Source: a virus
Lineage: Duplodnaviria; Heunggongvirae; Uroviricota; Caudoviricetes
Virus record (IMG/VR): IMGVR_UViG_2721755710_000002
Direction: 5' to 3' (one strand)
DNA: 44,549 bases
Below are positions 13,781 through 19,489 of the stretch, piece after piece. The translations under genes were made by a program, and so were the position numbers. The notes below the pieces were generated by a model. It was not told where the DNA came from and searched no databases. It was given only the letters and a program-made list of their open reading frames with translations. Numbering within the stretch: the first letter of the stretch is position 1; each line of letters starts with the position of its first letter.

Positions 13781-14833
13781 ATGAAAAATACTGTAAAAAT
13801 AAACAGTGTTGATTTAATCAACGCTGATTGCCTGCATTTTATTCAGTCCCTGCCTGATGATTCCATTGACCTGATTGTTACCGATCCGCCGTACTTCAAG
13901 GTGAAACCAAACGGCTGGGACAATCAGTGGAAAGGGGACGAAGATTACCTTAAGTGGCTGGACCACTGTCTGGCCCAGTTCTGGCGGGTGTTAAAACCTG
14001 CCGGAAGCCTTTACCTGTTCTGTGGGCATCGCCTGGCATCTGATATTGAGATCATGATGCGTGAACGTTTCAACGTGCTTAACCATATCATCTGGGCGAA
14101 GCCGTCCGGACGTTGGAATGGGTGTAATAAAGAAAGTCTGCGCGCATATTTTCCTGCCACAGAGCGCGTTCTGTTTGCTGAACATTACCAGGGGCCATAT
14201 CGCGGCAAAAGTGACGGCTATGCGGCAAAAGAAAGGGAACTCAAACAGCACATAATGGCACCGCTGATATCGTATTTCAGGGATGCTCGTGCCGAACTGG
14301 GTATAACGGCAAAACAAATTGCCGAAGCCACAGGTAAGAAAAATATGGTTTCCCACTGGTTTGGTGCCAGTCAGTGGCAGTTGCCGAATGAGGCTGACTA
14401 TCGGAAGTTACAGGCACTGTTTTCCCGTATAGCGGCAGAGAAGTTTCAGGAACAACAACTGGAACAACCACACCACCAGCTGGTGGCATCTTATGATTCA
14501 CTGAATCGCAAATATTCTGAATTGCTGGATGAGTTTAAATCTCTCCGGCGCTATTTCTCCGTATCAGTCTCCGTGCCTTATACCGATGTCTGGATGCATA
14601 AACCCGTTCAGTTCTACCCGGGTAAACATCCGTGTGAGAAACCGGCGGATATGCTCAGGCAAATAATCAATGCCAGTAGTCGACCTGGTGATCTGGTTGC
14701 TGATTTTTTTATGGGATCCGGTTCCACAATAAAAGCAGCAATGGCGCTGGGGCGTCGGGCCTTAGGTGTTGAGCTTGAGTCAGAGCGGTTTAACCAGACA
14801 GTGAAAGAGATAAACGAGCTGCTGGGGAAATAA
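13781..14833 (+). CDS. DNA methyltransferase (amino-MTase, DPPY motif first, FxGSGST near C-terminus)
   Basis: …[10 protein letters not shown]… and …[10 protein letters not shown]… motifs; no adjacent endonuclease candidate, so apparently orphan. Confidence 0.8.
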
Positions 14834-14839
14834 TCTGGT

Positions 14840-14900: not shown

Positions 14901-15116
14901 ATGAAATCCATGGATAAGTTAACAACGGGTGTCGCCTATGGCACCTCAGCAGGTAGTGCCGGGTACTGGTTTTTACAGTTGCTCGATAAAGTCACGCCCT
15001 CACAGTGGGCGGCAATAGGTGTGCTGGGTAGTCTGGTATTTGGCCTGCTGACGTACCTGACAAACCTTTATTTCAAGATTAAAGAAGATAAGCGCAAGGC
15101 TGCGAGAGGTGAATAA
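14901..15116 (+). CDS. pinholin (phage 21 S-type) with dual-start motif
   Basis: MKSMDKL… dual Met start; the body closely matches the recalled S21 sequence (…[17 protein letters not shown]…[13 protein letters not shown]…[11 protein letters not shown]…RKAARGE). Confidence 0.8.
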
Positions 15117-15613
15117 TGCCTCCATCATTACGAAAAGCAGTTGCTGCTGCTATTGGTGGCGGAGCAATTGCTATAGCATCAGTGTTAATCACTGGCCCAA
15201 GTGGTGACGATGGCCTGGAAGGTGTCAGCTACATACCATACAAAGATATCGTTGGCGTATGGACTGTATGTCACGGACACACCGGAAAAGACATCATGCT
15301 CGGTAAAACGTATACCGAAGCAGAATGCAAAGCCCTCCTGAATAAAGACCTTGCCACGGTTGCCAGACAAATTAACCCGTACATCAAAGTCGATATACCG
15401 GAAACAACGCGCGGCGCTCTTTACTCGTTCGTCTACAACGTGGGGGCTGGCAATTTCAGAACATCGACGCTTCTTCGCAAAATAAACCAGGGCGATATCA
15501 AAGGCGCATGTGACCAGCTACGTCGCTGGATATACGCTGGCGGTAAGCAATGGAAAGGCCTGATGACTCGTCGTGAGATTGAGCGTGAAGTCTGTTTGTG
15601 GGGGCAACAATGA
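15116..15613 (+). CDS. SAR (signal-anchor-release) endolysin, lysozyme family
   Basis: N-terminal Gly/Ala-rich weakly hydrophobic segment [18 protein letters not shown] followed by a lysozyme-like domain; sits between holin and Rz. Confidence 0.8.
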
Positions 15614-16314: not shown

Positions 16315-16706
16315 TAATGGCTTATACCCTACACGGGATAACTTAACTGATATCCCTTTTAACGGATAAAGGTATTCAAGCCTGACACATCATGCGCTGT
16401 ATCGTCGCCGTATTCCCGTATTAACAGAGACCGTAGCCCGACGGGGAACTCCTTCTGCGAGAGTGTGCGGGAATAATCAAAAACGATGCACACCGGGTTT
16501 TTACCGCGTTTATGGTTCGCGGGTTTGTCCCTCATGCTCGCCAGTCCTGTGCGGGGGTGGAAGAAACAGGATACTCACACAGATTCTTGTGGGCACGATG
16601 CTATTCCTTTCTGGATTATCCCGATGCCATTCATGCAAGGCGCTGTATCAGACGTTCGTCATGGCTGTCAGGCTGACGGGTCCTCCCGGTGGGGTGGTCT
16701 GCCACG

Positions 16707-16718
16707 GGGCGGGAGCGT
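16707..16718 (+). other. cos: candidate cosN cohesive-end site (GGGCGGGAGCGT), lambda-like
   Basis: ACG-GGGCGGGAGCGT-CGCGG parallels the recalled lambda ACG-GGGCGGCGACCT-CGCGG context; the terminase small subunit gene starts ~187 nt downstream, as Nu1 does in lambda. Confidence 0.55.
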
Positions 16719-16892
16719 CGCGGAAAAAGGCTAGTTTTTGAAATTTTATTCGTCATCACCACCAATGTAATTGATTGATATTACAGTGATTTTATTTTTA
16801 TGGTGTCGATTCTGATTGTTTTTTGTTCATCACTAACACCGTTTGCCTAAAGTTGTTCGCAAGATGCATGTTTAAAACATTCTGGAGCGGGT

Positions 16893-17387
16893 ATGGATCG
16901 AGAGTTAAAAAATCTGACGCTGAATATCAGTCAACTGGCGGCATTGTCAGGTGTACATCGCCAGACTGCTGCGGCAAGGCTGCAAAATCTACCCGTTGCA
17001 GGGGGGCATGAAAGCAACCTCAAGCTTTATCGGGTGGTTGATATTGTGTCGGCATTTCTGGCATTACCACCGCCGGTTGCAGAAGGCGAAATGGACGCGC
17101 ATGAGCGCAAAGCCTGGTATCAGTCTGAACGTGAGCGTCTTAAGTTCGAACAGGAAACGGCACAACTCATTCCGGCCAGTGATGTCAGACGGGAGTTTGC
17201 CATCTGGGCAAAAGCGGTCGTGCAGGTGCTGGAGACATTACCGGATATTCTTGAACGTGACTGCGGTCTGCAGCCTGCCGCTGTGAGCCGTGTTCAGTCC
17301 ATTATTGATGATCTTCGCGATCAGATAGCCCTGCGGGTGACTGAAGCAGGTGCGGATGATGAGGAGGAATTACAGCAGGAGGAGTAA
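16893..17387 (+). CDS. terminase small subunit (Nu1-like)
   Basis: N-terminal HTH-like region (…LNISQLAALSGVHRQTAAARLQ…); first gene after cos, immediately upstream of the large subunit. Confidence 0.7.
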   Translation: MDRELKNLTLNISQLAALSGVHRQTAAARLQNLPVAGGHESNLKLYRVVDIVSAFLALPPPVAEGEMDAHERKAWYQSERERLKFEQETAQLIPASDVRREFAIWAKAVVQVLETLPDILERDCGLQPAAVSRVQSIIDDLRDQIALRVTEAGADDEEELQQEE

Positions 17388-19489
17388 TGCTGAATCAGGA
17401 AACCGCAAAGGCAGCACGAACCGATTCAGGTTATATCCTTCGCGCACCGAGACGAATGCGGGTTGCTGATGCCGTTGCTCAGTATATGCGGGTGCCCATG
17501 GGGGCAGGGAACTCAGTCCCGTGGGATCCGCTGGTGGCACCGTATGTTATTGAGCCTATGAACTGCCTGGCCTCGCGTGAATACGACGCAGTGATATTTG
17601 TTGGCCCGGCACGAACCGGCAAGACTATCGGCCTGATTGACGGCTGGGTGATTTACAACGTGATTTGCGATCCTGCTGATATGCTGATTATTCAGATGAC
17701 GGAGGAAAAAGCCCGCGAACACTCCAAAAAACGACTCGCCAGAACGTTTCGCGTCAGCCCGGAAGTGGTCAGTCGCCTGAGTCCGAACAAAAATGACAAC
17801 AACGTTTATGACAGAACATTCCTTGCTGGTAACTACCTGAAAATCGGCTGGCCGTCAGTCAATATCATGTCCTCATCAGATTATAAATGCGTCGCGCTGA
17901 CGGATTATGATCGTTTTCCGGAAGATATTGATGGCGAGGGGGATGCTTTCTCTCTTGCCTCAAAACGTACCACAACATTTATGTCCAGTGGTATGACGCT
18001 GGTGGAGAGTTCCCCCGGCAGGGATGTGAAGGATGTGAAATGGCGACGGACTTCACCGCATGAGGCTCCACCAACCACGGGGATACTGTCGCTCTATAAC
18101 CGTGGCGATCGCCGTCGCTGGTACTGGCCCTGTCCACACTGTGGTGAGTATTTTCAGCCCTGCGGCGATGTGGTTGCTGGTTTCCGTGATATTGCCGATC
18201 CCGTTCTGGCAAGTGAGGCGGCTTATATTCAGTGTCCTTCCTGTTCAGGACGGATTATGCCTGAACAAAAACGTGAGCTGAACGGACGTGGGGTCTGGTT
18301 GCGGGATGGTGAATCCATCAATGCGGATGGCAGTCGTTATGGTGATCCCCGACGCTCACGTATTGCGTCATTCTGGATGGAGGGGCCGGCAGCTGCTTAC
18401 CAGACACTCTCGCAACTCGTTTACAAACTGCTTACTGCAGAACAGGAATACGAGACAACCGGAAGTGAAGAAACACTCAAGACGGTTATCAATACCGACT
18501 GGGGATTACCTTATCTTCCCCGCGCCAGCATGGAGCAACGAAAAAGTGAACTGCTTGAGCAGCGGGCAGAGCCAGTTCCTTCCCGCAGTGTGCCGGATGG
18601 CGTTAATTTTCTTGTGGCGACAGTGGATGTGCAGGCGGGACGTCATCGCCGTTTTGTGGTTCAGGTAACGGGCTATGGCAGCCGTGGCGAACGCTGGATT
18701 ATTGATCGTTACAACATCACGCAGTCATTGCGCGGTGACTGCGACGGGGAGAGCCAGCGAATTGATCCGGCCAGCTACCCGGAAGACTGGGATGTCCTGC
18801 TGACGGATGTTTTTCATAAAAGCTGGCCGCTGGCCTCCGATCCTTCTCAACAAATGCGACTGATGGCAATGGCGGTGGACTCCGGCGGTGAAGACGGGGT
18901 CACTGATAATGCCTATAAATTCTGGCGTCGTTGCCGTCGTGATGGCCTTGGTAAACGTATTTACCTGTTTAAGGGTGACAGCATCCGGCGCGCAAAACTG
19001 ATCAGCCGTACATTCCCTGATAACACCGGACGAACGGGCCGCCGGGCGCAGGCCGCAGGTGATGTGCCGCTCTGGCTTCTTCAGACGGATGCACTGAAAG
19101 ACCGGGTGAATAACGCGTTATGGCGTGACTCGCCAGGTCCCGGCTATGTGCATTTCCCTGACTGGCTGGGGAGCTGGTTTTACGACGAACTGACGTATGA
19201 AGAGCGGAGCAGTGACGGGAAATGGAGTAAGCCGGGTCGCGGTGCCAACGAAGCTTTTGACCTGATGGTGTATGCCGAGGCTCTGGTCATTCTGCATGGA
19301 TACGAAAAGATCCGCTGGCCGGATGCACCGGAGTGGGCGAGCCGGGAAACCTGGCTGGAGTGTGTCCCGGACAGTATCGAACCGTCACCCTCACCGGAAC
19401 CGGTATCCACGCCTGTTAAAAAACAAAAACGGAAGAAAACAGTAACTGACGATGTTAACCCCTGGCTGACTTCCGGAGGATGGTTATGA
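17387..19489 (+). CDS. terminase large subunit (gpA-like)
   Basis: 700 aa; Walker A-like VGPARTGKT; position after the small subunit. Confidence 0.9.
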   Translation: MLNQETAKAARTDSGYILRAPRRMRVADAVAQYMRVPMGAGNSVPWDPLVAPYVIEPMNCLASREYDAVIFVGPARTGKTIGLIDGWVIYNVICDPADMLIIQMTEEKAREHSKKRLARTFRVSPEVVSRLSPNKNDNNVYDRTFLAGNYLKIGWPSVNIMSSSDYKCVALTDYDRFPEDIDGEGDAFSLASKRTTTFMSSGMTLVESSPGRDVKDVKWRRTSPHEAPPTTGILSLYNRGDRRRWYWPCPHCGEYFQPCGDVVAGFRDIADPVLASEAAYIQCPSCSGRIMPEQKRELNGRGVWLRDGESINADGSRYGDPRRSRIASFWMEGPAAAYQTLSQLVYKLLTAEQEYETTGSEETLKTVINTDWGLPYLPRASMEQRKSELLEQRAEPVPSRSVPDGVNFLVATVDVQAGRHRRFVVQVTGYGSRGERWIIDRYNITQSLRGDCDGESQRIDPASYPEDWDVLLTDVFHKSWPLASDPSQQMRLMAMAVDSGGEDGVTDNAYKFWRRCRRDGLGKRIYLFKGDSIRRAKLISRTFPDNTGRTGRRAQAAGDVPLWLLQTDALKDRVNNALWRDSPGPGYVHFPDWLGSWFYDELTYEERSSDGKWSKPGRGANEAFDLMVYAEALVILHGYEKIRWPDAPEWASRETWLECVPDSIEPSPSPEPVSTPVKKQKRKKTVTDDVNPWLTSGGWL

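What the first reader, a model, noticed from the sequence alone, without database searches (positions are those of the whole stretch)
16700..16900. Lambda-like cos site with a variant 12-nt cohesive end
The motif ACG-GGGCGGGAGCGT-CGCGG followed by A/T-rich tracts parallels the lambda cosN context as I recall it, and the terminase small subunit gene begins ~187 nt downstream, matching lambda Nu1 spacing. The predicted cohesive end GGGCGGGAGCGT differs from lambda's GGGCGGCGACCT at four positions, implying a distinct packaging specificity.
Basis: partly seen in the sequence, partly recalled or inferred. Interest (0 to 1): 0.45.

Follow-up and report, generated by a model that had tools for sequence, protein, structure and literature searches.

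The report
Lambda-type cos site of a common prophage
This is the DNA-packaging cut site (cos) of a very common mEp460/cdtI-like lambdoid prophage of E. coli: a real but ordinary, already catalogued variant of the lambda cohesive end. Its four base differences from lambda do not by themselves set packaging specificity.

Summary
ACG|GGGCGGGAGCGT|CGCGG lies at window 16704-16723, once only (about 0.02 matches expected by chance). The small terminase gene starts at base 187 from the predicted left end, against 191 in lambda.

It is a full lambda-type cos:
- cosQ heptamer GGGTCCT at 16678-16684
- cosN at 16702-16723
- an A/T-tract spacer
- three R-like repeats oriented + - +, with an IHF consensus between the first two
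- a remote Nu1 homologue as TerS (Pfam DUF1441), then a gpA-family TerL

The deposited genomes of phages cdtI and Tritos start exactly with this 12-mer and end with ...CCACG. The region occurs in 2117 of 5426 complete E. coli genomes.

The 12-mer differs from lambda at positions 7, 8, 9 and 11, and from Gifsy-1 only at position 7. Published work from the Feiss laboratory describes positions 7-12 as commonly variable and not under selection. Packaging specificity resides in cosB and TerS.

The same 12-mer is joined to at least four different cosB sequences. So "distinct specificity because of the cohesive end" is the wrong inference, although specificity distinct from lambda is likely through cosB/TerS. 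Virion ends were not measured here.

Verdict: already known, low interest.

The parts
16678..16684 (+). cosQ-like heptamer GGGTCCT, 22 bp upstream of the predicted top-strand nick (23 bp in lambda)
   Evidence: It is identical to the lambda heptamer, which starts 30 nt before lambda's right end. It is conserved in PhiR40_1, 606R10, VT1-Sakai, cdtI, Tritos and phi458. Its role in packaging termination is inferred from lambda (PMC4856287).
16702..16723 (.). cosN, 22-bp nicking site CCACG|GGGCGGGAGCGT|CGCGG. The predicted nicks lie between 16706/16707 on the top strand and 16718/16719 on the bottom strand.
   Evidence: It aligns base for base with lambda TTACG|GGGCGGCGACCT|CGCGG. 12 of 22 positions are rotationally symmetric, against 10 of 22 in lambda. 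It is unique in the window.
16707..16718 (+). Predicted 12-nt 5' cohesive end GGGCGGGAGCGT
   Evidence: The cdtI (AB285204) and Tritos (OV696610) records begin with exactly this 12-mer and end with ...CTGCCACG. It differs from lambda at positions 7, 8, 9 and 11, and from Gifsy-1 (GGGCGGCAGCGT) at position 7 only. The nick positions are inferred, not measured.
16724..16752 (.). A/T-tract spacer between cosN and cosB (AAAAAGGCTAGTTTTTGAAATTTTATTCG), in the position of lambda's I2 segment
   Evidence: Read directly from the sequence. Lambda has poly-dA and poly-dT tracts at about bp 18-50 (PMC4856287). The first 16 nt are identical in cdtI and Tritos, after which the sequences diverge.
16753..16761 (+). 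R3-like TerS binding repeat TCATCACCA, at bases 47-55 from the left end
   Evidence: It aligns with the ATCATCATC repeat of Fels-1 and VT1-Sakai. TerS binding is inferred.
16768..16780 (-). IHF consensus WATCAANNNNTTR (TATCAATCAATTA), in the position of lambda I1 between R3 and R2
   Evidence: It is one of only 3 exact matches in the window. The count itself is not above chance (mean 1.9); the argument rests on its position.
16801..16809 (-). R2-like repeat TCGACACCA, inverted relative to R3 and R1
   Evidence: It aligns with the inverted GATGATGAT of Fels-1 and VT1-Sakai.
16827..16835 (+). R1-like repeat TCATCACTA
   Evidence: It aligns with TCATCATCTT of Fels-1.
16893..17387 (+). Terminase small subunit gene (164 aa, Pfam DUF1441), whose stop overlaps the TerL start
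   Evidence: Pfam DUF1441, E 2.7e-41. PHROG 141 'terminase small subunit', E 7e-74, and lambda Nu1's PHROG 57, E 8e-10; Nu1 reciprocally hits PHROG 141 at 5.6e-8. The N-terminal segment aligns with the first ~50 residues of Nu1.
17387..19489 (+). Terminase large subunit gene (700 aa), lambda gpA family
   Evidence: Pfam GpA_ATPase 7.7e-72 and GpA_nuclease 1.1e-85. It is 25% identical to lambda gpA over 625 aa, E 4e-19, and 88% identical to cdtI TerL.

Best explanation
Window 16678-16892 is the cos site of an intact mEp460/cdtI-like lambdoid prophage of E. coli, and it works like lambda cos.

Proposed mechanism:
1. TerS (a DUF1441 protein and remote Nu1 homologue) binds the R3, R2 and R1 repeats of cosB.
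2. IHF bends the DNA between R3 and R2.
3. This anchors the gpA-type TerL over cosN.
4. TerL nicks the two strands 12 bp apart, after 16706 on the top strand and after 16718 on the bottom strand. The result is 5' overhangs GGGCGGGAGCGT.
5. DNA is packaged rightwards from the cosB-bearing end.
6. Packaging ends at the next cos, where cosQ (GGGTCCT) is needed for bottom-strand nicking.

What is shown here: the sequence elements, their homology and spacing, the protein families, and two deposited phage genomes that start and end at the predicted nick.

What is inferred from lambda: the binding events, the exact nick positions and the 5' polarity.

[quoted passage not shown] They are not what sets packaging specificity. 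Specificity resides in cosB plus TerS, which here are a module different from lambda's.
For: - Motif: exact, unique and not expected by chance.
- Homology to lambda: cosQ, both nick flanks and GGGCGG are identical to lambda, read from NC_001416, with spacing 22 versus 23 bp.
- Proteins: TerL has both gpA Pfam domains, followed by a lambda-family portal. TerL is 25% identical to gpA. TerS hits the small-terminase PHROGs, including Nu1's.
- Record ends: cdtI and Tritos start with GGGCGGGAGCGTCGCGGAAAAAGGCTAGTTTTT and end with ...CTGCCACG.
- Isolated phages: phi458, PhiR40_1 and 606R10 carry the identical cosN.
- Conservation: 64 of 80 IMG/VR loci encoding the identical TerS have this 12-mer, and 13 have ...GCGG. 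The region is present in 2117 of 5426 complete E. coli genomes.
- cosB: R-like repeats in + - + order, with an IHF consensus between the first two. They align with the clear ATCATCATC / GATGATGAT / TCATCATC triads of Fels-1 and VT1-Sakai.
- Literature: lambda-like phages are defined by 12-base 5' ends similar to lambda's. Positions 7-12 vary commonly, cosQ and the left half are conserved, and specificity lies in cosB/TerS (PMC4669245; PMC4856287; PMC9026076).
- The same 12-mer is joined to at least four cosB types.
Against: - How the cdtI authors placed base 1 is unknown, because the paper is not held. Tritos may simply follow cdtI.
- The R consensus searched was derived from the window itself. 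The repeat finder did not report the R repeats in the window.
- The IHF match count in the window is not above chance.
- TerS shows no BLASTP similarity to Nu1. The shallow hhalign gave only 11% probability, E 0.0028.
- Relatives with 1-3 fewer bases between the nick flanks exist. The rule that places the nicks is therefore not fully settled for this clade.
Confidence: 0.88

Rival explanations
1. It is a real lambda-type cos, but the nicks are not exactly where predicted. The overhang would then have a different length or register, for example shifted by a few bases or 9-11 nt long.
For: Relatives show length variation between the conserved flanks. mEp460_4F5 reads CCACG-GGGCGGGAG-CGCGG, 3 nt shorter. 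VT1-Sakai and O157-like loci are 1-2 nt shorter. No end mapping was available.
Against: The window has exactly the lambda spacing of 12 bp between the conserved CG flanks, and higher twofold symmetry than lambda about the same centre. The cdtI and Tritos records are cut exactly at the predicted position. The mEp460_4F5 start was chosen relative to reference genomes, not measured.
Confidence: 0.06
2. It is a relic cos in a defective prophage that is no longer cut or packaged.
For: Many E. coli lambdoid prophages are defective.
Against: TerS, TerL, the portal and the protease-capsid fusion are all full-length ORFs. The cos region is 98.6% identical over 1 kb to phage vB_EcoS-569R4. Its cosN is identical to that of the isolated phages phi458 and PhiR40_1.
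Confidence: 0.05
3. The resemblance to lambda cosN is coincidental, and the phage packages by a headful (pac) mechanism.
For: None found.
Against: The chance expectation is 0.02. TerL belongs to the gpA family. cosQ, cosN and cosB are all present in lambda order and spacing.
Confidence: 0.01

Closest known systems
cos of phage cdtI (AB285204 / NC_009514) and phage Tritos (OV696610)
   Same: The 12-mer, both nick flanks, cosQ and the first 33 nt of the left end are identical in cdtI (100% over window 16707-16739). Both records begin and end at the predicted nick. TerL is 88% identical, and nearly identical through the nuclease domain.
   Different: To the right of base +33 the cosB sequence is unrelated. 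TerS is only 42% identical, and the first ~20 residues of TerL do not align. They probably have a different cosB/TerS specificity.
cos of phage mEp460 and relatives (JQ182728, Ayreon, phi458, vB_EcoS-569R4)
   Same: They share the window's cosB type, TerS and TerL, at 98-99% DNA identity. phi458 has the identical 12-mer.
   Different: mEp460 itself has G instead of T at position 12 (GGGCGGGAGCGG). The mEp460 and Ayreon records are opened at the TerS gene by convention, and their cos was never mapped.
Bacteriophage lambda cos (cosQ-cosN-cosB, Nu1/gpA terminase)
   Same: The cosQ heptamer, the ACG/CGCGG nick flanks and GGGCGG are the same. Also shared are a 12-bp stagger implied by spacing, an A/T-tract spacer, R3-I1-R2-R1 order, a TerS gene about 190 bp from the end, and a gpA-family TerL.
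   Different: Cohesive-end positions 7, 8, 9 and 11 differ. cosQ lies 1 bp closer. The R sequences are of TCATCAC type, not CGTTTCC type. TerS is undetectable by BLASTP against Nu1, and TerL is only 25% identical.
Salmonella phage Gifsy-1 cos (counted by the Feiss laboratory among the lambda-like cohesive-end phages)
   Same: Its 12-mer GGGCGGCAGCGT differs from the window's only at position 7. It shares cosQ and the nick flank ACG.
   Different: Gifsy-1 has a Nu1/phage 21-type TerS and lambda-type head genes. Its cosB repeats are different.
cos regions of Fels-1 and VT1-Sakai (Sp15)
   Same: They share a DUF1441 TerS (42-53% identical) and an alignable cosB with an R3/inverted R2/R1 triad.
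   Different: Fels-1 has GGGCGGCAGCGG and a degenerate cosQ (AGGTACT). VT1-Sakai has one base fewer between the flanks. Their R repeats are ATCATCATC rather than TCATCACCA.

Membership tests
Lambda-like cos packaging system (12-base 5' cohesive ends, as defined in PMC4669245) | Large terminase of the lambda gpA family, with ATPase and endonuclease domains | tested here: met
   Pfam GpA_ATPase 7.7e-72 and GpA_nuclease 1.1e-85. BLASTP to lambda gpA: 25% identity over 625 aa, E 4e-19.
Lambda-like cos packaging system (12-base 5' cohesive ends, as defined in PMC4669245) | [quoted passage not shown] | tested here: met
   CCACG|GGGCGGGAGCGT|CGCGG against lambda TTACG|GGGCGGCGACCT|CGCGG. 8 of 12 positions in the overhang and 8 of 10 in the flanks are identical. 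Chance expectation is 0.02.
Lambda-like cos packaging system (12-base 5' cohesive ends, as defined in PMC4669245) | cosQ heptamer upstream of cosN | tested here: met
   GGGTCCT at 16678-16684, 22 bp before the nick, against 23 bp in lambda.
Lambda-like cos packaging system (12-base 5' cohesive ends, as defined in PMC4669245) | cosB to the right of cosN with TerS binding repeats (R3, inverted R2, R1) and an IHF site between R3 and R2 | tested here: inconclusive
   TCATCACCA (+), TCGACACCA (-) and TCATCACTA (+) lie at 16753, 16801 and 16827, with an IHF consensus at 16768-16780. They align with clearer triads in Fels-1 and VT1-Sakai. The pattern was derived from the window itself, and no binding was tested.
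Lambda-like cos packaging system (12-base 5' cohesive ends, as defined in PMC4669245) | Small terminase of Nu1 type, with an N-terminal DNA-binding domain, encoded just right of cos and upstream of TerL | tested here: met
   Its position and its overlap with TerL fit. PHROG 141 E 7e-74 and Nu1's PHROG 57 E 8e-10, with a reciprocal Nu1 hit to PHROG 141 at 5.6e-8. The N-terminus aligns with Nu1 residues 3-52. BLASTP alone is negative.
Lambda-like cos packaging system (12-base 5' cohesive ends, as defined in PMC4669245) | Virion DNA that is non-permuted and carries complementary 12-base 5' single-stranded ends | not testable with these tools
   The only evidence is indirect: the cdtI and Tritos records start and end at the predicted nick. 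The primary paper is not held.
Lambda packaging specificity group (DNA packaged by lambda Nu1/gpA) | Lambda-type R sequences (CGTTTCC...) in cosB, recognised by the Nu1 recognition helix | tested here: not met
   No lambda-type R sequence lies between 16719 and 16892. TerS has no BLASTP similarity to Nu1. The window therefore works like lambda cos but is not expected to share lambda's specificity.

The most novel reading that the evidence does not exclude
The most novel reading not excluded has two parts. First, in this clade the cosQ-cosN core (window about 16676-16739) may be a shared, exchangeable cassette that is recombined onto different cosB/TerS specificity modules. Second, the number of bases between the nick flanks may genuinely vary (9-13 in relatives), giving functional lambda-type cos sites with cohesive ends shorter than 12 nt. 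The window itself has the canonical 12.
Probability: 0.1. Interest if true: 0.35.

Novelty: already known. Interest (0 to 1): 0.1.

Why it matters
It matters little beyond correct annotation. The site marks the true ends of the virion chromosome of a prophage type found in about 39% of complete E. coli genomes. RefSeq still labels its small terminase 'DUF1441 family protein'. Several deposited phage records carry hypothetical ORFs across the region that holds cosN. Knowing the cos position helps to orient such genomes. It also identifies which helper phages and satellites can share packaging. Finally, the data illustrate with natural sequences the published rule that the cohesive-end sequence and packaging specificity are separable.

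Tried and rejected
- Primary papers. I tried to read Asakura 2007 on phage cdtI, Vahanian 2017 on natural cosN variation and Casjens & Gilcrease 2009. None is held, so I could not learn how cdtI base 1 was set or whether this exact 12-mer is tabulated.
- Literal 12-mer search. A full-text search for the 12-mer returned only an unrelated mammalian promoter paper.
- mEp460_4F5 record start. The record begins 5 nt left of the nick. I considered this possible evidence for a different terminus and rejected it, because the authors chose nt 1 relative to reference genomes.
- mEp460 and Ayreon record starts. These records begin 25 nt before the TerS gene. Ayreon's authors say they opened the genome at the TerS gene without mapping cos, so the start is a convention and not a terminus.
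- The Tritos paper says nothing about cos.
- TerS searches. BLASTP of TerS against Nu1, a PDB sequence search and NCBIfam all gave nothing.
- The repeat finder did not report the R repeats in the window. It reported them only in Fels-1 and VT1-Sakai.
- IMG/VR contig ends did not coincide with cos.

Full report
**Observation**

The window reads ...GGTCTGCCACG GGGCGGGAGCGT CGCGGAAAAAGGCTAGTTTTTGAAATTTTATT... The 12-mer lies at 16707-16718 and the flanks ACG and CGCGG at 16704-16706 and 16719-16723. The pattern ACGGGGCGGNNNNNNCGCGG, with one mismatch allowed, occurs once in the window on both strands. Shuffles give 0.02 matches on average.

Lambda's own junction, read from NC_001416, is TTACG|GGGCGGCGACCT|CGCGG. 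The 12-mers differ at positions 7, 8, 9 and 11. The next gene starts at 16893, base 187 of the predicted mature chromosome. Lambda nu1 starts at base 191.

**Surroundings**

- Upstream is a lysis cassette: a P21-type holin at 14838, a lysozyme at 15116 and Rz at 15598. A DNA methylase gene precedes it.
- Downstream is a 164-aa protein of Pfam family DUF1441, whose stop overlaps the start of a 700-aa protein. That protein has both lambda gpA terminase domains. A small gpW-sized ORF, a lambda-family portal and a ClpP-capsid fusion follow.
- The DUF1441 protein matches PHROG 141 'terminase small subunit' (E 7e-74). It also matches PHROG 57, the family of lambda Nu1 (E 8e-10), and Nu1 matches PHROG 141 in return at 5.6e-8.
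- Its N-terminal segment LNISQLAALSGVHRQTAAARL aligns with residues 3-52 of Nu1. BLASTP alone sees nothing, and the shallow hhalign is weak (probability 11%, E 0.0028).
- TerL is 25% identical to gpA over 625 residues.
- The same 261 bp occur at 100% identity in the chromosome of E. coli strain elppa10. RefSeq annotates the neighbours there as lysis genes, 'DUF1441 family protein', terminase large subunit and portal. The window is therefore a prophage with an apparently intact packaging module.

**Anatomy of the site**

- cosQ: the heptamer GGGTCCT is at 16678-16684, 22 bp before the predicted top-strand nick (23 bp in lambda).
- cosN: the 22-bp segment CCACGGGGCGGGAGCGTCGCGG has 12 of 22 rotationally symmetric positions, against 10 of 22 in lambda, about the same centre.
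- Spacer: cosN is followed by poly-A and poly-T tracts, in the position of lambda's I2 segment (PMC4856287).
- cosB: TCATCACCA lies at 16753 (+), an exact IHF consensus at 16768-16780 (-), TCGACACCA at 16801 (-) and TCATCACTA at 16827 (+).

In an alignment with PhiR40_1, 606R10, Fels-1 and VT1-Sakai, these three repeats fall on the much clearer ATCATCATC / GATGATGAT / TCATCATC triads of Fels-1 and VT1-Sakai. This is the R3-I1-R2-R1 order of lambda, which the Feiss laboratory also describes for phi80, 21 and Gifsy-1 (PMC9026076).

I derived the R consensus from the window itself, and the number of IHF matches in the window is not above chance. The cosB assignment therefore rests on position and on the alignment, not on statistics.

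**Evidence from relatives**

- A distant BLAST of 16660-16900 found that phage cdtI (AB285204/NC_009514) begins at its base 1 with a 33-nt stretch 100% identical to window 16707-16739. Phage Tritos (OV696610) ends exactly at the base that corresponds to 16706.
- Reading both records confirms this. Both start GGGCGGGAGCGTCGCGGAAAAAGGCTAGTTTTT and both end ...CTGCCACG.
- Phages phi458, PhiR40_1 and 606R10 carry the identical cosN. mEp460 itself has G at position 12.
- Among 80 IMG/VR loci that encode the identical TerS, 64 have GGGCGGGAGCGT and 13 have GGGCGGGAGCGG.
- The region is present in 2117 of 5426 complete E. coli genomes.
- Gifsy-1 reads TTACG|GGGCGGCAGCGT|CGCAGG. The window therefore differs from that published lambda-like end at position 7 only.

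**What the four differences mean**

Feiss and co-workers define lambda-like phages by 12-base 5' ends similar to lambda's. They state the following (PMC4669245):
- Differences at positions 7-12 are common. N15 differs at 9 and 12, and Gifsy-1 at 8, 9 and 11.
- cosQ, the left half of the end and the CG dinucleotides at the nicks are conserved.
- Packaging specificity resides in TerS recognition of the cosB R sequences.

A dedicated survey of natural cosN variation exists (Vahanian et al. 2017, Virology 509:140, cited), but I could not read it.

cdtI and Tritos have the identical cosQ-cosN core, but to the right of base +33 their cosB is unrelated. Their TerS is 42% identical, and the first ~20 residues of TerL do not align, while the nuclease domain is almost identical.

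phi458 combines a cdtI-type left flank with the window's cosB. The core at about 16676-16739 is thus bounded by mosaic junctions on both sides.

The inference 'variant end, hence distinct specificity' therefore does not hold. A specificity different from lambda's is still likely, but because cosB and TerS differ.

**Limits**

- No virion-end measurement for this cosN was available. The cdtI paper is not held.
- The Tritos and mEp460_4F5 records come from a laboratory whose stated practice, in the paper describing mEp460_4F5, was to set base 1 relative to reference genomes. The Tritos paper says nothing about cos.
- Ayreon was opened at the TerS gene without mapping cos, and the mEp460 records start at the same position.
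- Some relatives have fewer bases between the nick flanks: mEp460_4F5 has 9, and VT1-Sakai-like loci have 10 or 11. I cannot tell whether these are functional.

**Verdict**

This is a genuine, complete lambda-type cos site with predicted 5' ends GGGCGGGAGCGT (confidence about 0.88). It is an already catalogued and very common variant. The specificity argument attached to it is mistaken in its logic. Interest is low.

Noticed in passing
L100 (IMGVR_UViG_2574179916_000005) 92, 8227, 10763; also L108: One 12-kb contig carries three cosQ-cosN cores in the same orientation, each followed by a different cosB type. After the first come a DUF1441 TerS and a TerL cut down to its ATPase domain. Then come an integrase, Bro-N, an AAA_25 replicase-like protein, SSB, the second cos, a ClpP-capsid fusion, the third cos and a second DUF1441 TerS. 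It looks like a satellite or PICI-like island inserted in the TerL gene of a mEp460-like prophage and carrying cos sites of two specificities. L108 also has three cos cores within 8 kb.
   Followed up: partly
L001 1-30 (LR595868 mEp460_4F5); L014 933-960 (VT1-Sakai); IMG/VR loci: The number of bases between the conserved nick flanks varies among relatives. mEp460_4F5 has CCACG-GGGCGGGAG-CGCGG (9 nt). O157/VT1-Sakai-like loci have GGGCGGGCGG or GGGCGGGCGGG (10-11 nt), and one locus has a 4-nt insertion. These could be defective prophages, assembly errors or truly shorter cohesive ends.
   Followed up: partly
window 16486-16734 and 16463-16741: These ORFs of 82 and 92 aa run straight across cosN. 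The 82-aa one is annotated as a hypothetical protein in mEp460 (mEp460_059). A hypothetical CDS also spans this region in PhiR40_1, and hypothetical proteins lie under the match in vB_EcoS-569R4. They are probably spurious gene calls, since the sequence is severed in virion DNA.
   Followed up: no
window 16400-16571: This stretch of about 170 nt, upstream of cosQ, is 83-96% identical to a segment about 130 nt from the right end of many lambda- and 434-like phage records. It is often unannotated there (H14-H40). It is not obviously present in the last 120 nt of lambda NC_001416. Its function is unknown.
   Followed up: no
L013 850-912 (Fels-1): Fels-1 has a degenerate cosQ (AGGTACT instead of GGGTCCT) at the usual distance from cosN.
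   Followed up: no
window 13781-14833: A 350-aa N6/N4 DNA methyltransferase gene (Pfam N6_N4_Mtase, 2.2e-42) sits just upstream of the holin gene.
   Followed up: no
window 16893-17387: RefSeq (PGAP) names this small terminase only 'DUF1441 family protein', and NCBIfam has no model for it or for the TerL. PHROGs and its genomic position identify it as TerS.
   Followed up: yes
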